Source of the DNA: Escherichia coli
GTDB taxonomy: Bacteria > Pseudomonadota > Gammaproteobacteria > Enterobacterales > Enterobacteriaceae
Reading direction: 5' to 3' (one strand)
Assembly (NCBI RefSeq): GCF_965641715.1
Contig: NZ_OZ282453.1
DNA length: 64,000 bases
Both the position numbers and the translations under genes were made by a program. The notes under the pieces were generated by a model, which searched no databases, was not told the DNA's origin, and saw nothing but the letters and a program-made list of their open reading frames with translations. Below are positions 49,668-64,000 of this stretch, in pieces. Each line of letters opens with the position of its first letter. Position 1 is the first letter of the stretch.

Positions 49668-50624
49668 ATGAACCCGATTGCAGTTACCCTACTCACCGGT
49701 TTTTTAGGCGCGGGAAAAACCACCCTGCTGCGCCATATTCTTAACGAACAACACGGCTACAAGATTGCCGTGATTGAAAACGAATTCGGCGAAGTCTCCG
49801 TTGATGATCAACTGATTGGCGACCGCGCCACGCAGATCAAAACGCTGACCAACGGCTGCATCTGCTGTTCGCGCTCCAACGAGCTGGAGAACGCGCTACT
49901 CGACCTGCTGGATAATCTCGACAAGGGCAATATTCAGTTCGATCGTCTGGTCATTGAATGCACCGGCATGGCCGATCCTGGCCCGATTATTCAGACCTTT
50001 TTCTCCCATGAGATTTTATGCCAGCGCTACCTGCTGGACGGCGTGATTGCGCTGGTGGATGCGGTACATGCCGATGAGCAGATGAACCAGTTCACCATCG
50101 CCCAGTCCCAGGTTGGCTACGCCGACCGTATTCTGCTGACTAAAACCGACGTCGCAGGCGAAGCAGAAATACTGCGTGAACGTCTGGCACGCATCAACGC
50201 CCGTGCACCGGTCTACACCGTCACCCACGGCGACATCGACCTGGGCCTGCTGTTCAACACTAACGGTTTTATGCTGGAAGAAAACGTCGTCAGCACCAAA
50301 CCGCGTTTCCACTTTATCGCGGATAAACAAAACGATATTTCGTCGATTGTGGTGGAACTGGATTACCCGGTAGATATCAGCGAAGTTTCCCGCGTGATGG
50401 AAAACCTGCTGCTGGAATCGGCGGATAAACTGCTGCGTTACAAAGGGATGCTGTGGATTGACGGCGAACCTAATCGCCTGCTGTTCCAGGGCGTCCAGCG
50501 CCTCTACAGCGCCGACTGGGACCGCCCATGGGGCGATGAAAAACCGCATAGCACGATGGTGTTTATCGGGATTCAGTTGCCGGAGGAAGAGATTCGGGCG
50601 GCGTTTGCGGGGTTGAGGAAGTAA
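49668..50624 (+). CDS. yjiA: CobW/COG0523-family GTPase YjiA
   Basis: 318 aa from MNPIAVTLLTGFLGAGKTTLL (Walker A); CxCC motif GCICCS. Confidence 0.8.
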   Translation: MNPIAVTLLTGFLGAGKTTLLRHILNEQHGYKIAVIENEFGEVSVDDQLIGDRATQIKTLTNGCICCSRSNELENALLDLLDNLDKGNIQFDRLVIECTGMADPGPIIQTFFSHEILCQRYLLDGVIALVDAVHADEQMNQFTIAQSQVGYADRILLTKTDVAGEAEILRERLARINARAPVYTVTHGDIDLGLLFNTNGFMLEENVVSTKPRFHFIADKQNDISSIVVELDYPVDISEVSRVMENLLLESADKLLRYKGMLWIDGEPNRLLFQGVQRLYSADWDRPWGDEKPHSTMVFIGIQLPEEEIRAAFAGLRK

Positions 50625-50710
50625 TCGTGAAAGGTTGAGTGTAAAGCAGCTCAATGCCCCATTTAGCAGTGAGGGGGGAAACAGAACGACGTGCTCCCCT
50701 CCGCTAAGTT

Positions 50711-50902
50711 TTATTGCGCGTGAATACCTGGATCTGGCAAAAAATTGCCGCGTTTGGCGTCAGACCATGCTTCGCTACCAGAAGCAGGAATGTCGCTGTA
50801 ATCAATGTCTTCGTCGGATTTATTAACCAAAGCCATGAGTTCAGCTTCTTGCTGCACATCAAGTGTGTAGAGTGTGCCCCGTTTATGTTTAACCATGCTC
50901 AT
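50711..50902 (-). CDS. Small ORF with possible antitoxin-like motif (weak)
   Basis: 63 aa; DEDIDYSDIP ... WSDAKRG is reminiscent of BrnA-like antitoxins; no partner toxin seen. Confidence 0.2.
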   Translation of the reverse strand: MSMVKHKRGTLYTLDVQQEAELMALVNKSDEDIDYSDIPASGSEAWSDAKRGNFLPDPGIHAQ

Positions 50903-50941
50903 TTATGACCAGAACCTTTACGATTTAATTATAAAGATGAC

Positions 50942-51943
50942 TTATTTCAGCCATCCAGGCACGTTATATTCTGAGACATTCTCAATGGAATATGCATCTC
51001 TCCTGTCAGAACCTTTCTTACACTTCAACTCATTGAACCCCCATTTACCCTCTCTATTGGAATAAAATACAGTATATTTATCAGTATTAAACCCGAAATA
51101 TCTTTCATCCGGACGTGAAATATTCAACTCTCCACATTTAACCTGACTGCGCCATTCAAAATCTATGGTGCTTTTTAAAACGTAGTACGAAATATTCTCT
51201 ACATTTTTTGAAGCAAAAACTACTAAAATAGTAGATACTATAAATGCTCCGGCAAGTATAAATAACCTATACACACTTAATTTAGTCCCCAGAGTTAAAA
51301 AAGCAAAATAGATAATAAGTTGCATCAACATGAAGAAAATCAACAAAAAAGCCATCCCTTTCCAGAAATACTCAACCCATGGTGATAGTGTGATATTTAG
51401 ATTACTCAAACTTAAAAATAAACTGGAAGAAAAACTACTTGAGAATAAATATATAATTGGTATGACAGCTAAAGTCATAGACCTAATAATCATTAATTTT
51501 TTATTATTTTTAAATTCCAACTCTAATATAATAAAAACACCTCCCAGAAAAACAAATACTGAAAAAGCACTAAAAACGTATACAGAGACACTGACTGGAA
51601 AAATATTAATTGAAAGCACAAAAAACAAAAATATAAACCATGCAATAAGTGAACACCAGGCAGCACAACTATTCAAACTGTTTTTATTACTGAACTTGAC
51701 AAAATACCCCATATATTCTGTAATGCGATTTTCTTCCACTAATGCATAAAGAAGAATACCAACAAAGCACAGAGATAAAATAATATCTTTCCACAGATAT
51801 TTATAAGGGAGAAGTATAAAACCAAGGAGTAGATAAATTAGCAGAATGACATCTAATGCCTTAGTACAAAAATATTGTTTCACTCCTTGCAAGAACCGAA
51901 CATTCTCCATATGAATCCTTCTCCAGCTATTGATGAAACTCAA
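50942..51943 (-). CDS. AT-rich polytopic membrane protein (about 6-7 TM) with about 80-aa C-terminal soluble tail; occupies the mrr slot
   Basis: 333-aa ORF with visibly low GC (AT-rich); multiple long hydrophobic segments; no motif recognised. Confidence 0.5.
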   Translation of the reverse strand: MSFINSWRRIHMENVRFLQGVKQYFCTKALDVILLIYLLLGFILLPYKYLWKDIILSLCFVGILLYALVEENRITEYMGYFVKFSNKNSLNSCAAWCSLIAWFIFLFFVLSINIFPVSVSVYVFSAFSVFVFLGGVFIILELEFKNNKKLMIIRSMTLAVIPIIYLFSSSFSSSLFLSLSNLNITLSPWVEYFWKGMAFLLIFFMLMQLIIYFAFLTLGTKLSVYRLFILAGAFIVSTILVVFASKNVENISYYVLKSTIDFEWRSQVKCGELNISRPDERYFGFNTDKYTVFYSNREGKWGFNELKCKKGSDRRDAYSIENVSEYNVPGWLK

Positions 51944-52050
51944 GAATACCTTTAAAACAGTGACTTAACGCTGATAATACTCTTTGAACAGATGAATTCA
52001 TCTATTTTTCTGTGTAGAATTTGCGCATCGCATTTAGATGAGAACACCCC

Positions 52051-54483
52051 ATGGCGGAACTGAACCTAAGTAACCTGACGGAAGCAGACATCATTACCAA
52101 ATGCGTTATGCCAGCCATTCTCAATGCAGGCTGGGACAACACAACGCAAATCAGACAGGAGGTCAAACTCCGGGACGGTAAAGTCATCGTACGTGGTAAA
52201 GTTGCGGCACGCAGAACGGTAAAATCTGCTGACATCGTGCTGTACCACAAGCCAGGCATTCCCTTAGCCGTGATTGAAGCAAAAGCCAACAAACATGAAA
52301 TTGGCAAAGGGATGCAACAGGGCATTGAATATGCGCGCCTGCTGGACGTTCCTTTTGTTTTTGCCACCAATGGTGATGGCTTTATCTTCCGCGATGCCAC
52401 CGCAGCTGAAGGTGAATGCCTTGAAAAGCAAATAACGCTGGATGACTTCCCCTCCCCCGCTGAACTCTGGCAAAAATTCTGCCTCTGGAAAGGATACACA
52501 CAAGCTCAGCTTCCGGTGATTACTCAGGACTATTACGACGATGGTAGCGGTAAATCGCCTCGTTATTATCAACTTCAGGCAATCAACAAAACCATTGAAG
52601 CCGTCTCCAACGGGCAAAACCGCGTTCTGCTGGTCATGGCGACCGGAACAGGGAAAACCTATACCGCATTCCAGATCATCTGGCGCCTGTGGAAATCAAA
52701 AAATAAAAAACGCATTCTGTTCCTTGCCGATCGCAACATTCTGGTCGACCAAACCAAAAATAATGATTTCCAGCCATTTGGTACGGCAATGACCAAAGTC
52801 AGCGGACGCACCATTGATCCCGCTTATGAAATTCACCTCGCGCTCTATCAGGCTATAACTGGCCCGGAGGAAGACCAAAAAGCGTTTAAACAAGTCGCAC
52901 CAGATTTCTTCGATCTGATCGTGATCGACGAATGCCATCGCGGCAGCGCATCCGAAGACAGCGCCTGGCGAGAGATCCTTGATTATTTCAGTTCCGCCAC
53001 CCAAATTGGCTTAACCGCCACGCCAAAAGAGACGCATGAAGTCTCCAGCACGGATTACTTCGGCGATCCGGTTTACGTCTACTCGCTAAAAGAAGGGATC
53101 GAAGACGGCTTCCTCGCCCCTTATAAAGTTGTCCGTGTTGATATTGATGTTGATCTGCAAGGCTGGCGCCCAACCAAAGGGCAAACTGACTTAAACGGCG
53201 AAGTGATCGACGATCGTATCTATAACCAGAAAGATTTCGATCGCACGATGGTAATCGACGAACGCACAGAACTGGTTGCCAGAACCATTACCGACTACCT
53301 CAAGCGCACCAATCCGATGGATAAAACCATCGTCTTCTGTAACGACATCGATCATGCAGAACGTATGCGCCGCGCCCTGGTTAATCTCAACCCGGAGCAG
53401 GTGAAAAAGAACGACAAATACGTCATGAAAATCACCGGCGATGATGAAATTGGCAAAGCTCAGTTGGATAACTTCATCAACCCGAAAAAACCGTACCCGG
53501 TTATCGCGACCACTTCAGAGCTGATGACCACCGGTGTGGATGCTAAAACCTGCAAACTGGTAGTACTGGACCAGAACATCCAGTCGATGACCAAATTCAA
53601 GCAGATTATCGGTCGTGGTACACGCATCGACGAACGTTACGGCAAACTCTGGTTTACCATCCTCGACTTTAAAAAAGCCACCGAACTGTTTGCCGATGAG
53701 CGTTTCGATGGCATTCCCGAAAAAGTCATGGATACCACACCAGAGGATATCGCCGATCCAGACTCTGATTTTGAAGAGAAACTCGAAGAAATCAGCGAAC
53801 ATGTCGACGAACAGGTAACAGGCGTTGATGAACCGCCTGCGCCACCATACCAGGTTAAAGATACCGATGATGTCGGCCCACTTCCGGAAGAAGACGAGAA
53901 GAAAATCCGCAAGTTTCACGTCAACGGTGTAGCGGTGGGCGTTATTGCCCAGCGTGTTCAGTATTACGACGCCGACGGTAAACTGGTTACCGAATCCTTT
54001 AAAGATTACACTCGCAAAACACTGCTCAAAGAATATGCCTCGCTGGATGACTTTACCCGCAAGTGGCAGGACGCCGATCGCAAAGAAGCGATCATTCACG
54101 AGCTGGAGCAACAGGGGATCATCTGGGAAGTACTGGCAGAAGAAGTCGGTAAAGATCTCGACCCATTCGACATGCTTTGCCACGTAGTGTATGGTCAGCC
54201 GCCGTTAACCCGCAAAGAGCGCGCCGAGAACGTGCGCAAGCGGAACTACTTCACAAAATACTCTGAAGCAGCGCAAGCCGTGCTCGATAATCTGCTGGAT
54301 AAATACGCCGATGCGGGCGTACAGGAGATCGAAAGTATTCAGGTGCTGAAACTTAAGCCATTCGACAGCATGGGCACCTTACCGGAGATTATTAAAACCG
54401 GATTTGGCGACCGTAACGGGTATAATCAGGCGCTCAGCGAGCTGGAAAACGAAATCTACCAATTACCGCCCCGCTCTGCTTAA
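52051..54483 (+). CDS. hsdR: Type I restriction enzyme R subunit (non-EcoKI size class)
   Basis: 810 aa; PD-(D/E)xK-like N-terminus; helicase motif [14 protein letters not shown] and motif II DECHRG. Confidence 0.85.
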
Positions 54484-54549
54484 CAACTCTCTTTTGTGCC
54501 TTCTGCAACCATCATGTTGCAGAAGGCCTTGTTTTTCATGGAATACAAC

Positions 54550-56019
54550 ATGTCTATCAGCTCAGTAATCAAATCATTACAAGATATTATGCGCAAAGAT
54601 GCCGGTGTGGACGGCGATGCGCAGCGTCTCGGTCAGCTCTCCTGGCTGCTATTTTTGAAAATCTTCGATGCCCAGGAAGAGGCGCTGGAACTGGAGCAGG
54701 ATAACTATCAATATCCGATCCCACAGCGTTATTTGTGGCGCAGTTGGGCCGCCAACGCGCAGGGCATTACCGGTGATTCCCTGCTGGAATTCGTTAATGA
54801 TGATCTGTTCCCGGCGTTGAAAAACCTCACTGCGCCTATCGATAAAAACCCACGCGGCTACGTGGTAAAGCAGGCGTTCAGCGATGCCTATAACTATATG
54901 AAAAACGGTACGCTACTGCGTCAGGTGATCAACAAGCTGAACGAAATTGACTTTACCAGCGCCAGCGAACGCCATCTGTTTGGTGATATTTACGAACAGA
55001 TCCTTAAAGATCTGCAATCTGCGGGCAATGCTGGCGAATTCTATACTCCACGCGCCGTCACTCGCTTTATGGTGGATCGCGTCGATCCGAAACTCGGCGA
55101 ATCCATTATGGACCCGGCCTGCGGTACGGGCGGTTTTCTTGCCTGCGCATTTGATCATGTAAAGAACAAATACGTGAAGAGCGTCGCCGATCATCAGACG
55201 CTGCAACAACAGATCCACGGTGTTGAGAAAAAACAGCTTCCGCACCTGCTGGCGACCACCAATATGCTGCTGCACGGCATTGAAGTACCGGTACAAATTC
55301 GTCACGACAACACCCTGAACAAACCGCTTTCCTCCTGGGATGAACAACTGGATGTCATTGTTACCAACCCGCCGTTTGGTGGCACGGAAGAAGATGGTAT
55401 TGAGAAGAACTTTCCAGCAGAGATGCAAACCCGCGAAACGGCGGATTTGTTCCTGCAACTGATTGTGGAAGTACTGGCGAAAAACGGTCGCGCGGCGGTG
55501 GTATTGCCGGATGGCACACTATTTGGCGAAGGCGTTAAAACCAAAATCAAAAAGCTACTTACCGAAGAGTGCAACCTGCATACCATCGTGCGCTTACCGA
55601 ATGGTGTGTTTAACCCCTATACCGGCATTAAAACCAACCTGTTGTTCTTTACCAAAGGTCAGCCAACCAAAGAGATTTGGTTCTATGAGCATCCGTATCC
55701 GGCGGGCGTGAAAAACTACAGCAAAACCAAGCCGATGAAGTTTGAAGAGTTTCAGGCGGAGATCGACTGGTGGGGTAACGAGGCCGATGGTTTTGCCAGC
55801 CGCGTCGAGAATGAGCAAGCGTGGAAAGTCAGCATTGATGACGTGATTGCGCGTAACTTCAATCTGGATATTAAAAACCCACATCAGGCGGAAACCGTCA
55901 GCCATGATCCGGACGAACTGTTAGCGCAGTATGCAAAGCAACAGGCGGAGATCCAGACGCTGCGTAATCAACTGCGCGATATTCTCGGCGCTGCGCTGTC
56001 TGGCAAGGAGGTTAACTGA
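54550..56019 (+). CDS. hsdM: Type I restriction-modification N6-adenine methyltransferase M subunit
   Basis: Motif IV NPPFGG; SAM-binding DPACGTGGFL; start could be 54496 or 54538. Confidence 0.85.
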   Translation: MSISSVIKSLQDIMRKDAGVDGDAQRLGQLSWLLFLKIFDAQEEALELEQDNYQYPIPQRYLWRSWAANAQGITGDSLLEFVNDDLFPALKNLTAPIDKNPRGYVVKQAFSDAYNYMKNGTLLRQVINKLNEIDFTSASERHLFGDIYEQILKDLQSAGNAGEFYTPRAVTRFMVDRVDPKLGESIMDPACGTGGFLACAFDHVKNKYVKSVADHQTLQQQIHGVEKKQLPHLLATTNMLLHGIEVPVQIRHDNTLNKPLSSWDEQLDVIVTNPPFGGTEEDGIEKNFPAEMQTRETADLFLQLIVEVLAKNGRAAVVLPDGTLFGEGVKTKIKKLLTEECNLHTIVRLPNGVFNPYTGIKTNLLFFTKGQPTKEIWFYEHPYPAGVKNYSKTKPMKFEEFQAEIDWWGNEADGFASRVENEQAWKVSIDDVIARNFNLDIKNPHQAETVSHDPDELLAQYAKQQAEIQTLRNQLRDILGAALSGKEVN

Positions 56020-57776
56020 TGAGTGTGGAAAAGCTGATCGTTGATCATATGGAAACCTGGACCTCGGCGTTGCAAACCCGTTCCACCGCCGGGCGCGGCA
56101 GCTCCGGTAAGATTGATTTGTATGGTATTAAGAAATTGCGTGAGCTGATTCTGGAACTGGCGGTGCGCGGTAAACTGGTGCCGCAGGATCCGCATGATGA
56201 ACCGGCGTCGGAGCTGCTGAAGCGTAATGAAGAACGGAAAAAAGAATTAGCGCGCAATAATGGTATGAAAACCACAGCAAGCACTAATATCCATGGAAAT
56301 GAATATTATATCGATACCCCCGAAAAGTGGTCATGGATAAGACTTGGTAATTTAGCTAAATTCATCGATTACCGAGGAAAAACACCACATAAAAAAGAAA
56401 ATGGTATAAGGCTTATAACAGCAAAAAATATCAGAAAGGGCTATATTGATCTCAATCCAGAAGAGTTCATATCTGAAGAAGATTACATATCATGGATGAC
56501 AAGAGGCTTTCCTAAATGTGGTGATATTTTATTCACAACTGAAGCACCACTGGGGAATGCAGCGATTATTGATTTAGACGGAAAGTTCGCTCTTGCTCAA
56601 CGTTCTATCTGTTTTCAATGGCATACTCCAGAGATAAGCCCTTTTATGCTTATTCAAATCCTGGCGATCCCCTTCCAGTCACAACTAAGTGACAAATCTA
56701 CAGGCATGACCGCAACAGGAATAAAAGCGTCTAAGTTAAAAGAGATCCCTGTTATTTTACCACCTTACCAAGAACAAATACGTATTGTATCCAAAGTACA
56801 GGAGTTCATGTCCCTATGTGACCAACTGGAACAGCAATCCCTGACCAGTCTGGACGCACATCAGCAACTGGTTGAAACCCTGTTGGAAACACTTACAGAC
56901 AGCCAAAACGCCGAGGAACTGGCTGAAAACTGGGCGCGTATTAGCGAGCATTTCGACACCCTATTTACCACTGAAGCCAGCGTGGATGCGTTAAAACAGA
57001 CCATTCTGCAACTGGCCGTAATGGGTAAACTTGTGCCGCAGGATCCGAATGACGAACCAGCCTCTGAACTGCTCAAACGAATTGCGCAGGAAAAAGCTCA
57101 ACTGGTGAAAGAAGGGAAAATAAAAAAACAAAAACCGTTGCCGCCAATTAGCGATGAGGAAAAGCCGTTTGAACTGCCGGAAGGTTGGGAGTGGTGTCGA
57201 TTGGGTTCTATTTATAATTTTTTAAATGGATATGCCTTTAAAAGTGAGTGGTTTACCTCTGTCGGTTTACGTTTATTGCGGAATGCTAACATTGCTCATG
57301 GAGTTACCAATTGGAAAGATGTTGTACATATACCAAATGACATGATATCCGATTTTGAAAATTATATTTTGTCAGAAAATGATATTGTTATTTCATTAGA
57401 CAGACCAATTATTAATACCGGGTTAAAATATGCTATCATTAGCAAATCAGATTTACCCTGTTTACTGCTCCAACGAGTAGCAAAATTTAAAAATTATGCA
57501 AACACTGTGTCTAACTCCTTCTTGACAATATGGTTGCAATCTTATTTCTTCATAAATTCAATTGATCCTGGAAGAAGTAATGGAGTTCCACATATATCTA
57601 CGAAACAGTTAGAGATGACACTATTTCCTCTTCTACCGCAAAGTGAACAAGATCGTATTATTTCAAAAACGGATGAATTAATACAAACCTGTAATAAACT
57701 GAAATATATTATCAAAACCGCCAAACAAACCCAACTGCACCTTGCAGACGCACTGACTGACGCAGCGATAAACTAA
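56019..57776 (+). CDS. hsdS: Type I restriction-modification specificity subunit with two AT-rich target-recognition domains
   Basis: 585 aa; duplicated conserved spacer (ELAVRGKLVPQDPHDEPASELLKR and LAVMGKLVPQDPNDEPASELLKR) flanking low-GC variable regions. Confidence 0.8.
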   Translation: MSVEKLIVDHMETWTSALQTRSTAGRGSSGKIDLYGIKKLRELILELAVRGKLVPQDPHDEPASELLKRNEERKKELARNNGMKTTASTNIHGNEYYIDTPEKWSWIRLGNLAKFIDYRGKTPHKKENGIRLITAKNIRKGYIDLNPEEFISEEDYISWMTRGFPKCGDILFTTEAPLGNAAIIDLDGKFALAQRSICFQWHTPEISPFMLIQILAIPFQSQLSDKSTGMTATGIKASKLKEIPVILPPYQEQIRIVSKVQEFMSLCDQLEQQSLTSLDAHQQLVETLLETLTDSQNAEELAENWARISEHFDTLFTTEASVDALKQTILQLAVMGKLVPQDPNDEPASELLKRIAQEKAQLVKEGKIKKQKPLPPISDEEKPFELPEGWEWCRLGSIYNFLNGYAFKSEWFTSVGLRLLRNANIAHGVTNWKDVVHIPNDMISDFENYILSENDIVISLDRPIINTGLKYAIISKSDLPCLLLQRVAKFKNYANTVSNSFLTIWLQSYFFINSIDPGRSNGVPHISTKQLEMTLFPLLPQSEQDRIISKTDELIQTCNKLKYIIKTAKQTQLHLADALTDAAIN

Positions 57777-57996
57777 TTCCCTCGCCCTCAAAAAACCAAT
57801 AAAGCGGCTAAATAGCCGCTTTATTCACATCACCAAAAATTATATTTCACGCTAAACTTCATCTTATTTTCATTAATTTTTAGCTGGACTTCCCCTGTAT
57901 TTACTGATGATATATCCAGGTATTTAGCGCGGTGCGGATGTGCGCCAACACACCCGCACCGCTAATCACAATCCCTATTTCTAAGGAATAGTAATC

Positions 57997-58338
57997 ATGA
58001 CTGACACGCATTCTATTGCACAACCGTTCGAAGCAGAAGTCTCCCCGGCAAATAACCGTCAATTAACCGTGAGTTATGCGAGCCGCTACCCGGATTACAG
58101 CCGTATTCCCGCCATCACCCTGAAAGGTCAGTGGCTGGAAGCCGCCGGTTTTGCCACTGGCACGGCGGTAGATGTCAAAGTGATGGAAGGCTGTATTGTC
58201 CTCACCGCCCAACCCGCCGCCGCCGAAGAGAGCGAACTGATGCAGTCACTACGCCAGGTGTGCAAACTGTCGGCGCGTAAACAAAAGCAGGTGCGGGAAT
58301 TTATTGGGGTGATTGCGGGTAAACAGAAAGTCGCCTGA
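57997..58338 (+). CDS. symE: SOS-induced toxin-like protein SymE
   Basis: 113 aa starting [34 protein letters not shown]; matches recalled K-12 SymE; adjacent to hsdS as in K-12. Confidence 0.8.
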
Positions 58339-58384
58339 TACATTGACCCGGTAGCGCCAGTGCTACCGGGTATTATTCGCCGCG

Positions 58385-60478
58385 TTATACCAAGGCGCTC
58401 TCCATCTGTTTTTCAAATGCCTGACGAATTAATCCCATAATGTAAGGAAGTTGTGCGAGGTCACTGAAACCAATTTCCACATCACCATTACCCCAGCGCC
58501 CAACATTTGTCACATCTTTGGCAATACCTTTCGGATCGACCAGTTCATGAAACTGCATATTAAGCGACAATCGCAGTCGGCTTTTTTGCGGCACAACATC
58601 AACAAAATTCGTTTCCGCTTTAAACGCAATATATAGCTTCAATACTTCCTGCGTGATCCCTGCGTCCAGGCGCATAACTTCATCGCGAAGATGATCGAAT
58701 AACACCCGGCTATGCGAACCATCAGCAAGAAAAGGATAATCACTCAGGCTGTAACTGGTTTTGTTTTCAGGCTGTCCCCGATAAACAGCTAAAACCTCTT
58801 CAGGAAGAGAAGGCGCTTGCCAGACCTGAACCGCGAGATCGGCCAGACGATCGGCTCGGGCGTGAATGGCGGCTTCATCCCATTTTTCGCACTGTCCAAG
58901 ACCGATATTCAAATAGAGCGGGCTATGCTTAAAGCCGTCTTCAATATCGCGTTTTTCTGCGAAAGGTCTGTCACTGTAACGGGAGTTATAGCGCGTTAAA
59001 GTGAGATTCCCCAACGTATGCAACAGTTCTTTATGAATACGCTGCCAGTCGCTTCCCAGCTCTTCGCGCCATTTAGCCGACAAATTTTCGTTCTGCGGCA
59101 TAATATGTTCAATCGTAAACTCTTCCACGCGCTCTCTGCGTTTATCGTTTTCCAGTCGTCGTAACCAGTAGCTGCGACTACGGAAGTTATAGAGATCGCG
59201 AACTTTTAATTCCCGTTTAAATTCATCATCGTTGGGGAAACGACGATATGAAGGTAGATTCAAAAAATGTACCTGAATACTTTCCAGATAATTTTCTTTA
59301 TTAATAACTTTATAAAAAGTGGCAAATGTCTTGTTCAAAGAATTTGTCGGAATTGCACATACTGCACGGCGGAAAACATAAGATTCAATTAAACGAATTA
59401 TGCTCAGGAAATCTTCGTGAGACAAAACGCCATTTTTATAGTCATGATAAAGCGCCAGTAAGAAAGGATACACCACATCGACCTTTAACTCGCGCAAATC
59501 CTGAAAAGCCGTAGCAAGCAATTTGTCACTTTCTTTTCCCAATGCCATTGCACAGTAATACTCCGCGTAGATATGAATATCTTCAACCAGCCGATCTACG
59601 CCTTTTTCAGCAACACTCTGGCTGCGGGCATGGAGTTTAAATGCCTCATAGACTTCATCTGTCCGAGGGATCTCCCCCGTTTTTACCGTCAGATAATGAC
59701 GCATAAAACTGTCAAAATATTCGCTGTAACCTTGCTGACCAAAGGCGACTTCCATTGGACGCCAGTGATCTTCATACAACCGGGTTTGATGCTCTGGTTC
59801 GAGGCCCATCAGAATAAAATTGCGCACCAGATCGGCCTGACTTAACGCCTTACCGGTGGAGTTCATACTTTCAAAAATCAGTTGCGGATTATCCTGACCA
59901 CGATTAAGCGCCACATCGACAATTAATAACTTTGCTAACCCACGACATAAGGGGATCAAGTCATCACCGAGTTTGGCAATTTGTTCATCAAAGAAAGTAA
60001 AGTTTTCCATTATTCGATGGGAATAGTTTTCTGGCATTGGTCTTTGTTTTATTAACGCCAGTAAACTGTCTTTATCAGTCTCGGTCAGCAGTAATTTAAA
60101 ACCTTTCTCGCCGGACTCATAAGGATTGAGCAAATAATAATTACGCAATTTCATTGCCGAAAAGCCATCAAAAACTTCGTCTTCGCCAAGATGGCGCGAT
60201 AAAGCCTCAATCAGCAACATTGCGGTCGTCAGCCGCTGCTGACCATCAATGACCAGCAACGGAGAAATACCAGAAACCTGATACAATCCCTGCTCTATAT
60301 AAACAACCGAACCGATAAAATGCGCTGATATATCGTCACGCTTTCCTGCACGAATGATGTCGTCCCAAAGTTGCCGACATTGTTGCCCGGTCCATGAATA
60401 AGTCCGTTGATAAATGGGAATAACAAACTGCTGCGAACGTTTTAAAAAATCGAGTAGGCGAGCTTCTGTAGCTTTCAT
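58385..60478 (-). CDS. GmrSD-family type IV (modification-dependent) restriction endonuclease candidate (DUF262 plus DUF1524)
   Basis: 697 aa; N-terminal DUF262 motifs (IPIYQRTYSW, DGQQRLTT); C-terminal His-Me finger-like TIEHIMPQ. Confidence 0.65.
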   Translation of the reverse strand: MKATEARLLDFLKRSQQFVIPIYQRTYSWTGQQCRQLWDDIIRAGKRDDISAHFIGSVVYIEQGLYQVSGISPLLVIDGQQRLTTAMLLIEALSRHLGEDEVFDGFSAMKLRNYYLLNPYESGEKGFKLLLTETDKDSLLALIKQRPMPENYSHRIMENFTFFDEQIAKLGDDLIPLCRGLAKLLIVDVALNRGQDNPQLIFESMNSTGKALSQADLVRNFILMGLEPEHQTRLYEDHWRPMEVAFGQQGYSEYFDSFMRHYLTVKTGEIPRTDEVYEAFKLHARSQSVAEKGVDRLVEDIHIYAEYYCAMALGKESDKLLATAFQDLRELKVDVVYPFLLALYHDYKNGVLSHEDFLSIIRLIESYVFRRAVCAIPTNSLNKTFATFYKVINKENYLESIQVHFLNLPSYRRFPNDDEFKRELKVRDLYNFRSRSYWLRRLENDKRRERVEEFTIEHIMPQNENLSAKWREELGSDWQRIHKELLHTLGNLTLTRYNSRYSDRPFAEKRDIEDGFKHSPLYLNIGLGQCEKWDEAAIHARADRLADLAVQVWQAPSLPEEVLAVYRGQPENKTSYSLSDYPFLADGSHSRVLFDHLRDEVMRLDAGITQEVLKLYIAFKAETNFVDVVPQKSRLRLSLNMQFHELVDPKGIAKDVTNVGRWGNGDVEIGFSDLAQLPYIMGLIRQAFEKQMESALV

Positions 60479-60574
60479 TCTGACGTCTTTCCGTGAAACG
60501 ATGATTTCGCAATAATAACCACTTCCTTGTGGAGGTTATAGAGAAATCCTGTTTATCCGCGACGAACATACCCC

Positions 60575-60739
60575 TCACTCCACATCCTCCCTGCGTAACC
60601 CAATATCCCTCAACCGCTCATCACTCATCTGCTGTAACACTCGTCGGGTCTGCATTTGCCACCGCCAACGCCTCATCGCCTGCCAGAGTTGCACAAGTCT
60701 GATAAACGGCGTTTTGGCTTTGTTTTCGTGAAATTCCAT
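60575..60739 (-). CDS. yjiS: DUF1127 small protein YjiS
   Basis: 54-aa ORF MEFHENKAKTPFIRLVQLWQAMRRWRWQMQTRRVLQQMSDERLRDIGLRREDVE; below the ORF-track size cut-off. Confidence 0.55.
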   Translation of the reverse strand: MEFHENKAKTPFIRLVQLWQAMRRWRWQMQTRRVLQQMSDERLRDIGLRREDVE

Positions 60740-60915
60740 CTGCTGCCTCCTCATCTTTCAGAGGCTTCATCATCCGCCTTCTGGCAGTTCACAATACAGA
60801 TGCAAATATTAGTTTTATTTAACATACAGACAGGTTAAAACAGCATCTGCATCCGGTTTTTTAGCTTCATCTGTACCGGTTTTTCTCTCTGTATGGTCTA
60901 AATAAGGAATACAGC

Positions 60916-62328
60916 ATGACGCGTTATCAACATCTGGCAACTCTGCTTGCCGAGCGGATTGAGCAAGGGCTGTATCGTCACGGGGAGAAATTGCCGTCGG
61001 TGCGCAGCTTAAGTCAGGAGCACGGCGTCAGCATCAGCACCGTGCAGCAGGCGTATCAGACGCTGGAGACGATGAAGCTCATCACTCCGCAGCCGCGTTC
61101 GGGGTATTTTGTCGCACAACGTAAAGCCCAGCCGCCAGTGCCGCCGATGACGCGTCCGGTGCAGCGCCCGGTGGAAATTACCCAGTGGGATCAGGTACTG
61201 GATATGCTGGAGGCGCATAGCGACAGTTCCATTGTTCCGTTAAGCAAAAGCACGCCGGATGTCGAAACGCCCAGCCTGAAACCACTCTGGCGGGAGCTAA
61301 GCCGGGTGGTACAGCATAATCTGCAAACCGTTCTCGGTTATGACTTGCTAGCCGGTCAGCGGGTATTGCGCGAGCAGGTTGCCCGCCTGATGCTCGACAG
61401 CGGCTCGGTGGTCACCGCCGATGACATCATTATCACCAGCGGCTGCCATAACTCGATGTCGCTGGCGTTAATGGCGGTGTGTAAACCGGGCGATATTGTC
61501 GCGGTCGAATCCCCCTGTTATTACGGTTCGATGCAGATGCTGCGCGGCATGGGCGTGAAAGTGATTGAAATCCCAACCGATCCAGAAACTGGCATCAGCG
61601 TTGAAGCGCTGGAACTGGCGCTGGAACAGTGGCCGATTAAAGGCATCATTTTGGTGCCAAACTGTAATAATCCGCTGGGATTTATTATGCCGGACGCGCG
61701 CAAACGGGCCGTTCTCTCTCTCGCTCAGCGTCATGATATTGTGATTTTTGAAGATGATGTCTACGGCGAACTGGCAACGGAGTATCCGCGCCCGCGGACC
61801 ATTCATTCATGGGATATCGACGGGCGAGTGCTGTTGTGCAGCTCGTTCAGTAAAAGTATTGCTCCAGGCCTGCGCGTGGGTTGGGTCGCACCGGGGCGTT
61901 ATCACGATAAACTGCTGCATATGAAATACGCCATCAGCAGCTTTAATGTGCCGTCCACGCAAATGGCGGCAGCAACGTTTGTGCTGGAAGGTCACTATCA
62001 TCGCCATATCCGGCGGATGCGGCAGATCTATCAGCGCAATTTGGCGCTTTATACCTGCTGGATACGGGAATATTTTCCCTGCGAAATCTGTATTACGCGC
62101 CCGAAAGGCGGATTTTTACTGTGGATAGAATTGCCTGAACAGGTCGATATGGTCTGCGTCGCGCGGCAGCTGTGCCGCATGAAAATCCAGGTGGCGGCAG
62201 GCTCGATTTTCTCAGCTTCCGGCAAATACCGTAACTGCCTGCGCATCAACTGCGCTTTGCCGCTCAGCGAAACCTATCGCGAAGCACTGAAGCAAATTGG
62301 CGAGGCCGTGTATCAGGCAATGGAATGA
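60916..62328 (+). CDS. yjiR: MocR-family regulator (GntR HTH fused to aminotransferase-like domain) YjiR
   Basis: 470 aa; N-terminal GntR HTH and class I aminotransferase-like body. Confidence 0.8.
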   Translation: MTRYQHLATLLAERIEQGLYRHGEKLPSVRSLSQEHGVSISTVQQAYQTLETMKLITPQPRSGYFVAQRKAQPPVPPMTRPVQRPVEITQWDQVLDMLEAHSDSSIVPLSKSTPDVETPSLKPLWRELSRVVQHNLQTVLGYDLLAGQRVLREQVARLMLDSGSVVTADDIIITSGCHNSMSLALMAVCKPGDIVAVESPCYYGSMQMLRGMGVKVIEIPTDPETGISVEALELALEQWPIKGIILVPNCNNPLGFIMPDARKRAVLSLAQRHDIVIFEDDVYGELATEYPRPRTIHSWDIDGRVLLCSSFSKSIAPGLRVGWVAPGRYHDKLLHMKYAISSFNVPSTQMAAATFVLEGHYHRHIRRMRQIYQRNLALYTCWIREYFPCEICITRPKGGFLLWIELPEQVDMVCVARQLCRMKIQVAAGSIFSASGKYRNCLRINCALPLSETYREALKQIGEAVYQAME

Positions 62329-62444
62329 ATTCGAATCAGTGGCGAGGCCCCTGATTTCCTCTCACGAATCGCCTGTGACTCGTTTTATCTTTGCAGGGGC
62401 ATCACCACGTTCCAGCATGGCTTAGGCAAAGTGTGCTTTGTTCA

Positions 62445-62545
62445 TACCGGATGCGGCGTGAACGCCTTATCCGGCTTACAAATCGCGCAAATTCAATAGA
62501 TTGCAGAGGTAATGTAGGTCTGATAAGCGTAGCACATCAGGCAGC
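62445..62545. repeat. REP/BIME elements
   Basis: CCGGATGCGGCGTGAACGCCTTATCCGG and GTAGGTCTGATAAGCGTAGCACATCAGGC units. Confidence 0.55.
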
Positions 62546-62569
62546 TTTGCGTTTGTCATCAGTCTCTGA

Positions 62570-63514
62570 TTAGTACTCGATCCATGGATCGCGCTTGCTT
62601 TCAGGCAAGGGTTGCTCTAATGCCTGCATTTGCTCTGCCGAAAGTCCAGTATATCGTTGTATCCATTCAGGATCCGCACCGTTCTGCAAAAGCAATCTAA
62701 GGAGGCGTTGTTCCCCTTCTTCTTTCCCCTTTTCCATCCCTAACAGCCATCCATCATTATGAATTCGCTCTGCAATCGTCATTATTCGCTCCCTGTGTTG
62801 TGGCATTCGACGGGTAAGTTCACTGATAAACTCATTAAAACGCGCTTCATCGCCAGTCAGTAAAATGTAATTTAACAGCGCGGTTATCTGGCTGTCATTA
62901 GCGCACCCTGTAACCAGTAATACTGCCAGTTGATCAATAAGCCCCATTAGATCGCGCTGGCGAATATGCTTTTGGATCAACTCCAACAGGGCGACTCTGC
63001 GGTGCTGCACAATCTCGTCGTCTGGCACGACAGTGATATCCACCAGCGGGAACGCGGCATTATAAAGTTTCCGTGCGGTAGTCGGGTCGGCAAATTCGTC
63101 CAGCCAGCACAGGGACCAGGGGTAAGGACTACGGCTACCGTGATAAAACAGCATCGGGATGACCAGCGGTAGCTGCCGGCGTTTATCATGCTCGATATGG
63201 CGCTGCATCACCGCCATGGAATAGCGCATCAGGCGAAACGCCATATGAATATCCTCGCGGCTCTGATGTTCAATCACTACGTAAATATAACCATCACCTT
63301 CACGGGTCTTTACCGACCACAGAATATCGGAGTGTAGCGCCCGCAATTTTTCATCGACAAAGCTGGCTGACTCCAGTTTTAAGCTGTCGAGATCGCACAG
63401 TTCACGTAAATCTTTGGGTAAGTGGATCTCCATAAAATCCCGCGCGGTGTCAGGGTGAGTGAGAAAGGATTTAAATAATGCGTCATGTGGCGTGCTGGTC
63501 GTGAAGTTTGTCAT
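62570..63514 (-). CDS. rpnD: Rpn-family recombination-promoting nuclease (YhgA-like), apparently intact RpnD
   Basis: 314-aa uninterrupted ORF; corresponds to the K-12 yjiP/yjiQ locus. Confidence 0.65.
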
Positions 63515-64000
63515 GGCGATCCGTCACCTGTAGATAAGATGGCCCGACTTTAGCGACTAACAAAACCATTCTCACCCGGCAATTTCTCGTTCCCCGAGGT
63601 GCTTTCCAGGCTATTTTTGTTCGTCTGCAAACGATACATTTTTCCGGAAACAGGCTCGCGTTTTACATTTCCTGTACCCGGCAGATATTCCCCTTTCCAC
63701 CGCGCTCTTTTGATTAACCGCAAATTTTAATTACACTTAAGGTGTATATTTTCTATGCAACCCATCAATTAAAGAGGTGTAATGTGCTGATGACTATTTG
63801 TAATCGTTATACATTCTGACCTGGAGTCAGAAGGTATTTCTCTGTCTGTGTGTTCACAGGCAGTGTGATTGATTACATGAAATTCAGTACATTTGCCCTT
63901 CTCGCCTGCCTTTCGTCATTACCGACGGTATTGAATTTCGTTTTCCCCGTTGGGGTTCTCCGGACAAGGAGTTGTTTGTTATGCCACGTTTTTTTGCCCG

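What the first reader, a model, noticed from the sequence alone, without database searches (positions are those of the whole stretch)
50711..50902. Small ORF with an antitoxin-like motif next to the mrr-slot membrane gene
A 63-aa ORF at normal GC lies just downstream of the AT-rich membrane gene on the same strand. It carries DEDIDYSDIP ... WSDAKRG, which is reminiscent of BrnA-type antitoxin tails. No cognate toxin gene is visible, so it may be a remnant or a chance ORF.
Basis: inference. Interest (0 to 1): 0.2.

Follow-up and report, generated by a model that had tools for sequence, protein, structure and literature searches.

The report
Truncated BrnA antitoxin gene remnant
The small ORF is the leftover first half of a known antitoxin gene (brnA) whose toxin partner and DNA-binding end were lost when the neighbouring restriction-gene island was reshuffled; it is an ordinary gene relic, not a new system.

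Summary
The 63-codon ORF is real (window 50711-50902, minus strand) and is not a chance ORF. Codons 1-54 are homologous to the N-terminal half of 100-aa BrnA antitoxins: tblastn 78% identity, E=1e-24; 44 bits against a profile of distant BrnA proteins, against at most 4 bits for shuffles. The last 9 codons come from unrelated spacer DNA.

Many other E. coli carry an intact brnT-brnA operon at this same position, beside yjiA at the edge of the immigration control region. Here three things are missing: brnT, the brnA Shine-Dalgarno sequence and the C-terminal ribbon-helix-helix half. An AT-rich membrane gene now lies upstream.

The retained segment matches the antitoxin fragment co-crystallised with the toxin in PDB 7VD7. 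However, five alleles show 8 synonymous and 19 non-synonymous variants (omega about 0.64). That is indistinguishable from neutral and rejects the omega of about 0.1 seen in intact brnA. Frameshifted and IS-cut variants also exist.

Pfam, NCBIfam and PADLOC give no hit because most of the Pfam BrnA model region is deleted. RefSeq already lists the product as 'antitoxin'.

Verdict: a decaying brnA remnant of low interest. A residual role as a stand-alone BrnT-binding peptide is not excluded but unlikely.

The parts
50741..50902 (-). Codons 1-54 of a brnA antitoxin gene, i.e. the N-terminal toxin-binding half: the homologous part of the relic
   Evidence: tblastn with intact E. coli BrnA matches 50902..50741 at 77.8% identity, E=1e-24. 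blastn gives 80% nucleotide identity over 50740-50902. A distant-BrnA profile aligns positions 5-56 of 103 to ORF residues 3-54 at 44 bits. The antitoxin chain 7VD7_B aligns to ORF residues 15-55.
50711..50740 (-). Nine non-brnA codons (LPDPGIHAQ) plus the stop codon, read from island-specific spacer DNA
   Evidence: Homology to every intact brnA stops at about 50740. Intact proteins continue as RPLKTQASVRIDADV....
50711..50902 (-).
50625..50740 (+). Spacer between the yjiA stop and the brnA breakpoint, specific to this island type. It holds a long hairpin (about 50663-50708) followed by TTTTATT, probably the yjiA terminator.
   Evidence: The fold has MFE -39 kcal/mol and z=-2.46. The spacer does not align with the yjiA-distal flank of K-12, of the intact-brnTA locus or of Salmonella. 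It is found only together with the relic.
50903..50941 (-). Junction between the membrane gene and the relic. The brnA Shine-Dalgarno sequence is lost, and a 9-nt match (ATCGTAAAG, 50916-50924) to the 3' end of brnT is the only possible trace of the toxin gene.
   Evidence: Alignments to intact loci show GAGAGGAG 5 nt before the ATG there, against AAGG 12 nt before the ATG here. No promoter-like site was found on the minus strand. A weak hairpin with a T-rich tail sits at the membrane gene end.
50942..51910 (-). AT-rich membrane gene of 322 aa that occupies the position of brnT (context, not part of a TA pair)
   Evidence: Its homologues occur without any brnA.
49668..50624 (+). yjiA, the conserved anchor gene at the edge of the immigration control region (context)
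52051..54483 (+). hsdR of an EcoAI-family (type IB) restriction system (context). Every relic locus inspected was next to this hsd type.

Best explanation
The ORF is a decaying remnant of a brnA antitoxin gene, left at the yjiA edge of the E. coli immigration control region (ICR). In the ancestral arrangement, brnT-brnA lay convergent with yjiA. That arrangement is still intact in about 39% of complete E. coli genomes. BrnT is a RelE-superfamily ribonuclease toxin. The N-terminal segment of BrnA binds the toxin, and its C-terminal ribbon-helix-helix (RHH) domain represses the operon. In this island type two rearrangements removed everything except brnA codons 1-54. On the upstream side, brnT, its promoter and the brnA ribosome-binding site were replaced by an AT-rich membrane-gene cassette. 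On the downstream side, the RHH half was replaced by a 116-nt spacer, from which the frame picks up 9 foreign codons and a stop. Shown here: the homology, the breakpoints, the same-site intact operon, the absence of brnT from the window, and relaxed selection. Inferred: the remnant has no function, is at most weakly expressed by read-through from the membrane gene, and persists only because it has not yet been deleted.
For: Homology is limited to codons 1-54.

Intact brnT-brnA sits in the same slot and orientation beside yjiA in other E. coli (L002/L003). brnTA DNA is found in 2113 of 5426 complete genomes, and the relic in 511. A review lists brnAT among the toxin-antitoxin systems of the ICR (PMC12707154).

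The window has no brnT. The Shine-Dalgarno sequence GAGAGGAG of intact loci is replaced, and no promoter-like site lies upstream on the minus strand.

The missing half is the C-terminal RHH domain, which controls brnTA transcription (PMC11980606). The model of intact BrnA shows helices at 68-75 and 81-99. PF14384 maps to residues 37-93.

Selection is relaxed. Five alleles carry 8 synonymous and 19 non-synonymous variants, giving omega of about 0.64. This does not differ from neutral (p=0.20) and rejects omega=0.1 (p=3e-6). The same 54 codons in intact genes show omega of 0.09-0.11, and the neighbours yjiA and hsdR show 0.02 and 0.05.

Further decay is seen in other strains: frameshifted products P0010, P0011, P0012, P0014, P0018 and P0032, and IS1 or IS5 insertions inside or at the end of the relic.

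The membrane gene travels without brnA elsewhere.
Against: The ATG and the reading frame are intact in most of the 511 genomes and in all five diverged alleles. The IDYSDIP core is unchanged. The retained segment is nearly the whole stretch seen bound to the toxin in PDB 7VD7, so a residual toxin-binding activity is physically plausible. Omega of 0.64 is below 1, although not significantly. The open frame is weak evidence either way: the chance of no stop codon after 27 random substitutions is about 0.41, and the alleles were picked from 63-aa annotations. No expression data were available.
Confidence: 0.82

Rival explanations
1. The ORF encodes a functional stand-alone mini-antitoxin. On this reading the 63-aa product keeps the BrnT-binding segment but lacks the RHH domain. 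It would be maintained to neutralise BrnT toxins arriving on plasmids or phages, or encoded elsewhere in the genome, as an anti-addiction or immunity role.
For: ORF residues 15-55 align with the antitoxin fragment (44 aa) present in the Salmonella toxin-antitoxin crystal 7VD7, with E=3e-11 and about 61% identity by my count. The family-conserved residues I33, D37, P39, W46 and R51-G52 are kept. The frame is open in most carriers, including E. fergusonii and cryptic Escherichia clades. BrnTA loci also occur on records of the plasmid collection.
Against: There is no Shine-Dalgarno sequence and no promoter of its own. Selection is indistinguishable from neutral and significantly relaxed compared with intact brnA. 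Substitutions hit positions conserved in intact proteins: D32 to H or Y, K53 to N, and loss of F55, R56 and P57. Frameshift and IS-disrupted variants circulate. E. coli genomes never showed more than one brnTA place, and that place is this same slot, so a resident cognate toxin is unlikely. Whether relic carriers have another brnT was not tested.
Confidence: 0.1
2. The AT-rich membrane protein and the BrnA fragment form a new two-gene module, in which a membrane toxin or effector is controlled by a BrnA-derived partner.
For: The two genes are adjacent, on the same strand and 39 nt apart in about 400-450 genomes. One metagenome scaffold (L008) joins the same membrane-gene end and spacer to a full-length brnA.
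Against: Homologues of the membrane gene lack any brnA neighbour. In Salmonella it sits in the same slot with no relic (alignment). In Pectobacterium and others it lies directly after P4-like integrases. The relic also persists without the membrane gene after an IS1 deletion. Identity of L008 to the window drops abruptly from about 99.7% to about 60% at codon 41. It is a single 856-bp scaffold, so it is either a recombinant or an assembly chimera, and no complete E. coli genome has that arrangement. The co-occurrence is explained by shared island descent.
Confidence: 0.04
3. It is a chance ORF with only a coincidental motif resemblance.
For: Short ORFs are abundant in the region. Pfam, NCBIfam and PADLOC give no hits.
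Against: The E-value to intact BrnA is 1e-24. The profile score is 44 bits against at most 4.1 bits for 200 shuffles. phrog_30665 hits the ORF at E=0.0076. The position is syntenic with intact brnA.
Confidence: 0.01

Closest known systems
BrnA antitoxin of the BrnT/BrnA type II toxin-antitoxin system (Pfam PF14384). Prototype from Brucella abortus, Heaton et al. 2012, as cited in PMC11980606. An enterobacterial representative was crystallised with its toxin as PDB 7VD7 (Salmonella Typhimurium).
   Same: Residues 1-54 are homologous to the N-terminal half of enterobacterial BrnA: 76-78% identity to the E. coli and Pseudocitrobacter proteins, and about 61% to the 7VD7 antitoxin fragment. The ELxAL and IDYSDIP...W..A.RG.F motifs are shared.
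   Different: It lacks residues 55-100, the C-terminal RHH domain. It has no adjacent brnT, no overlapping toxin-antitoxin operon layout and no Shine-Dalgarno sequence. It fails the PF14384 threshold and evolves under relaxed constraint.
Intact brnT-brnA operon of the E. coli and enterobacterial immigration control region, listed among ICR toxin-antitoxin systems in PMC12707154
   Same: The chromosomal slot is identical, immediately distal to and convergent with yjiA, and the orientation is the same. In Klebsiella the operon lies beside yjiR/yjiS, which are ICR genes in E. coli.
   Different: The relic shares only about 80% nucleotide identity with the common E. coli allele (dS about 1.2). It is therefore an old or imported allele, not a recent deletion of the common one. 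In every relic locus inspected it lies next to a type IB (EcoAI-family) hsd system and the AT-rich membrane gene.
Orphan or anti-addiction antitoxins, such as chromosomal ccdA-type antitoxins that neutralise plasmid toxins (from my own knowledge, not tested here)
   Same: It is an antitoxin-derived ORF without a cognate toxin, and it retains the toxin-binding part.
   Different: Those cases show evidence of expression and function. This ORF has lost its translation signals and shows near-neutral evolution.

Membership tests
BrnA antitoxin (PF14384) | Significant sequence or profile similarity to BrnA proteins | tested here: met
   Met for the N-terminal half only. tblastn gives E=1e-24 for codons 1-54. 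A custom profile of 52 distant BrnA proteins gives 44 bits over positions 5-56 of 103. phrog_30665 gives E=0.0076.
BrnA antitoxin (PF14384) | Match to the Pfam BrnA_antitoxin model above its gathering score (26.1 bits) | tested here: not met
   No hit even at E<=10. Intact homologues score 61-64 bits over residues 37-93.
BrnA antitoxin (PF14384) | C-terminal ribbon-helix-helix DNA-binding and autoregulation domain | tested here: not met
   Homology ends at codon 54. The remaining 9 residues are unrelated. The RHH assignment comes from PMC11980606. The strand-helix-helix region lies at about residues 58-99 in the model of intact BrnA.
BrnT/BrnA type II toxin-antitoxin module | Cognate brnT (PF04365) immediately upstream, overlapping brnA | tested here: not met
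   The window has no BrnT-like sequence. The upstream gene is an unrelated membrane protein. Intact loci have brnT overlapping brnA by 14 nt.
BrnT/BrnA type II toxin-antitoxin module | Binding and neutralisation of BrnT by the antitoxin | not testable with these tools
   The only evidence is indirect: the retained residues 15-55 align to the antitoxin fragment present in the 7VD7 complex.
BrnA antitoxin (as a functional gene) | Purifying selection comparable to intact brnA | tested here: not met
   Omega is about 0.64 from 8 synonymous and 19 non-synonymous variants. Omega=0.1 is rejected at p=3e-6, and neutrality is not rejected (p=0.20). Intact genes show 0.09-0.11.
BrnA antitoxin (as a functional gene) | Translation and transcription signals: a Shine-Dalgarno sequence at the proper distance and a promoter | tested here: not met
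   The GAGGAG at -5 in intact loci is replaced by AAGG at -12. No sigma-70-like site lies on the minus strand. These are consensus scans only.

The most novel reading that the evidence does not exclude
The 63-aa product is a translated, stand-alone BrnT-binding peptide, that is, an antitoxin stripped of its DNA-binding domain. It would give relic-carrying E. coli lineages immunity against BrnT toxins delivered by incoming plasmids, phages or recombined ICR islands. This would be a naturally occurring anti-addiction mini-antitoxin sitting inside a defence island.
Probability: 0.08. Interest if true: 0.4.

Novelty: already known. Interest (0 to 1): 0.08.

Why it matters
It matters little for biology. 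The locus is a small footprint of the recombination history of the E. coli immigration control region. It shows that brnTA was once present in the lineage that now carries the type IB hsd island. It also shows that cassette replacement at this hotspot cuts right through resident genes.

There is a practical point for annotation. RefSeq names this truncated, toxin-less fragment 'antitoxin' in hundreds of genomes without a pseudogene flag, which could inflate toxin-antitoxin counts.

There is also a practical point for method. A standard Pfam search misses the fragment, because most of the region the Pfam BrnA model covers is the deleted part.

Tried and rejected
- Pfam, NCBIfam and PADLOC scans of the ORF gave no hits, even at E<=10 for Pfam. 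This was rejected as evidence against homology, because PF14384 covers mostly the deleted half.
- An Rfam scan of 50400-52200 found nothing, so no known RNA explains the region.
- The promoter and terminator scan found no minus-strand promoter and only a weak hairpin after the membrane gene.
- I considered the membrane gene as a new toxin partner. I rejected this because its homologues occur without brnA.
- I considered L008 as proof of a 'membrane gene plus intact brnA' module. I set it aside as a possible recombinant or chimeric scaffold.
- Pairwise dN/dS from two alleles (0.39 from 9 changes) was too weak on its own. I extended it to five alleles.
- A Foldseek search of the intact-BrnA model against the PDB recovered only 7VD7_B and no RHH proteins. 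The RHH assignment therefore rests on the literature and the secondary-structure pattern.
- The Heaton 2012 paper and any publication for 7VD7 could not be retrieved.
- Searching the spacer 50625-50745 in the plasmid collection gave only one E. coli record with the same island.

Full report
**Observation.** The window carries E. coli btsT-yjiX-yjiA (yjiA at 49668-50624, plus strand). Next come a 63-codon minus-strand ORF (50711-50902), a minus-strand AT-rich membrane ORF (50942-51910 from the ATG used by RefSeq; 51943 from an upstream TTG) and an EcoAI-family hsdR (52051-54483). GC content is 45.8% for the small ORF, 31.3% for the membrane gene and 49.8% for the window. The quoted motifs are present.

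**What the ORF is.** Pfam, NCBIfam and PADLOC give nothing for the ORF. A sequence search, however, finds many near-identical 63-aa proteins in Escherichia that sources name 'antitoxin'. It also finds 100-aa proteins from E. coli, Pseudocitrobacter and Klebsiella that carry PF14384 (BrnA_antitoxin) and match the ORF over about 87% of its length at 60-78% identity.
- The alignment shows the ORF equals BrnA residues 1-54. Intact proteins then continue RPLKTQASVRIDADVMEWLKRPGKGYQTRLNAILREAML..., while the ORF ends with the unrelated LPDPGIHAQ.
- tblastn and blastn place the homology at window 50902..50741/50740, at 77.8% amino-acid identity (E=1e-24) and 80% nucleotide identity.
- A profile built only from 52 distant BrnA homologues (42-64% identical to E. 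coli BrnA) aligns its positions 5-56 of 103 to ORF residues 3-54. The score is 44 bits, against a maximum of 4.1 bits for 200 shuffles.
- phrog_30665 hits intact BrnA at 3e-27 and the ORF at 0.0076.
- PF14384 maps to residues 37-93 of intact BrnA. This explains why the curated model misses a fragment that ends at residue 54.

**Genomic history.**
- In other E. coli (L002, L003) an intact brnT (95 aa, PF04365) and brnA (100 aa) operon sits in exactly this slot. It is convergent with yjiA, and the brnA stop lies 33 nt from the yjiA stop. An Mrr-like gene and a different hsd system follow.
- In Klebsiella the operon lies beside yjiR/yjiS. In E. coli those genes lie at the other end of this island.
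- brnTA DNA is present in 2113 of 5426 complete E. coli genomes, once per genome. The relic is present in 511, in two main sequence bands: at least 99% identity in 406 genomes and 90-95% in 102. K-12 has neither; there mrr abuts yjiA.
- A 2025 review defines the immigration control region (ICR) as the variable segment between yjiA and yjiN, and already lists brnAT among its toxin-antitoxin systems (PMC12707154).
- Sequence beyond the yjiA stop differs between island types from the first base. In this type it is a 116-nt spacer (50625-50740) with a long hairpin plus TTTTATT, probably the yjiA terminator. The relic's last nine codons and stop are read from that spacer.
- Upstream, homology to intact loci ends at or within about 25 nt of the brnA ATG. 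The conserved Shine-Dalgarno GAGAGGAG (5 nt before the ATG in E. coli and Klebsiella) is replaced by sequence with only AAGG 12 nt away. A 9-nt match to the brnT 3' end is the only possible trace of the toxin gene.
- No BrnT-like sequence exists anywhere in the window. No sigma-70-like site lies on the minus strand between the relic and hsdR, and a weak hairpin with a T-rich tail follows the membrane gene.

[quoted passage not shown] An AlphaFold model of intact E. coli BrnA (mean pLDDT 81) shows helices at 68-75 and 81-99, which fits the two helices of an RHH. The N-terminal half contains only helix 16-27 and a short helix at 43-47.

PDB 7VD7 is a toxin-antitoxin complex from Salmonella Typhimurium. 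It contains a BrnT homologue and a 44-residue antitoxin fragment that corresponds to BrnA residues 14-57. The ORF aligns to that fragment over residues 15-55. The relic has therefore kept essentially the toxin-contacting segment and lost the DNA-binding half. This is an inference from which residues are present in the crystal; I could not read a paper on that entry.

**Is it still under selection?** I recovered five distinct relic alleles with DNA: the window, L009, L020, L021/22 and L023/24.
- They differ at 27 variants, 8 synonymous and 19 non-synonymous, giving omega of about 0.64.
- The non-synonymous share (0.70) does not differ from the neutral expectation of 0.79 (p=0.20). It rejects omega=0.1 (p=3e-6).
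- The same 54 codons compared among intact genes give omega of 0.09-0.11. Between the window and L009, yjiA gives 0.02, hsdR 0.05 and the membrane gene 0.34.
- Substitutions include D32 to H or Y and E31 to D in the acidic motif, and K53 to N in RGKF.
- Frameshifted or otherwise altered products exist in other isolates: P0010, P0011, P0012, P0014, P0018 and P0032.
- IS1 is inserted at about 50834 and IS5 at about 50708 in some genomes. An IS1 deletion has removed the membrane gene and hsd while leaving the relic.
- The open frame in most carriers is weak evidence. The probability of escaping a stop over 27 random substitutions is about 0.41, and the alleles were selected from 63-aa annotations.

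**The membrane gene is not a partner.** Its family is small. In Salmonella (42% identity) it sits in the same yjiA-hsdR slot with no brnA trace. In Pectobacterium and others (30-33% identity) it sits directly after P4-like integrases in satellite-like islands.

One 856-bp metagenome scaffold (L008) joins the same membrane-gene end and junction to a full-length brnA. Its identity to the window falls abruptly from about 99.7% to about 60% at codon 41, and no complete E. coli genome shows that arrangement. I treat it as a recombinant or an assembly chimera, not as proof of a module.

**Mechanism and verdict.** Most likely (about 0.8) the ORF does nothing. It is the surviving 5' half of brnA after cassette replacement on both sides, in a hotspot known for such exchange. 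If it is transcribed by read-through from the membrane gene, it could yield a short, probably unstructured peptide with a BrnT-binding sequence. The window holds no BrnT, and the only brnTA site seen in E. coli chromosomes is the slot that the relic itself occupies.

The main rival (about 0.1) is that this peptide is kept as a stand-alone neutraliser of incoming BrnT. The evidence against it is the lost translation signals, the near-neutral evolution and the circulating disrupted variants. A membrane-protein/BrnA module (about 0.04) and a chance ORF (about 0.01) are poorly supported.

**Comparison with known systems, and novelty.** The ORF is a fragment of a member of the BrnA family, not a functional member. 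It meets the homology criterion for the N-terminal half only. It fails the Pfam threshold, the RHH domain, the adjacent toxin, the operon layout and the selection tests. The protein is already in RefSeq (WP_000063145.1, 'antitoxin'; seen on at least 1000 contigs), and brnTA in the ICR is already described. Interest is low. The useful by-products are an annotation caveat (a toxin-less truncated fragment is named 'antitoxin') and a note on the uncharacterised AT-rich membrane gene.

Noticed in passing
window 50942-51910 (-); L010 4001-4969; L011-L017: The AT-rich (31% GC) gene encodes a 322-aa multi-pass membrane protein with no Pfam, NCBIfam or PADLOC match. Its small family occurs in Salmonella in the same yjiA-hsdR slot. 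In Pectobacterium and other bacteria it lies immediately downstream of P4-like integrases in satellite-like islands. This pattern suggests a mobile cargo gene, possibly a defence gene.
   Followed up: partly
L008 1-856 (ENA ERZ28614792 scaffold): This metagenome scaffold joins the same membrane-gene 3' end and junction to a full-length 100-aa brnA. Identity to the window drops abruptly from about 99.7% to about 60% at brnA codon 41, so it is either a recombinant allele or an assembly chimera. No complete E. coli genome has this arrangement.
   Followed up: partly
window 50625-50740 (+): This island-specific 116-nt spacer after yjiA has a long hairpin (about 50663-50708; MFE of the 126-nt fold -39 kcal/mol, z=-2.46) followed by TTTTATT. 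It is probably the yjiA terminator. It has no Rfam match and is found only together with the relic.
   Followed up: partly
RefSeq annotation of homologous loci (L001, L009, L025): PGAP names the truncated 63-aa product 'antitoxin' (WP_000063145.1) in the main allele and 'hypothetical protein' (WP_001513538.1) in the 94.7% allele. Neither is flagged as a pseudogene, although 46 of the 100 codons and the toxin gene are missing.
   Followed up: yes
L018 (IS1 at window-equivalent about 50834), L019 (IS5/ISKpn26 at about 50708), L026 (IS1 just upstream of the relic): IS1 and IS5 insertions and IS-mediated deletions erode this end of the immigration control region in several strains. They sometimes remove the membrane gene and the whole hsd operon.
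   Followed up: partly
window 52051-64000 (by homology to L025): The matching annotated strain E2865 suggests that the rest of the window downstream is a type IB (EcoAI-family) hsdRMS, then symE, a GmrSD-type restriction gene, a truncated DUF262 gene, yjiS and yjiR. This would be a typical immigration control region variant. Only the small region around the ORF was compared with that strain, and beyond it only hsdR and the ORF of the next gene (from 54496) were seen in the window itself.
   Followed up: no
window 51911-51943 (-): The start of the membrane gene is ambiguous. The mechanical ORF begins at a TTG at 51943 (333 aa), whereas RefSeq uses the ATG at 51910 (322 aa).
   Followed up: no
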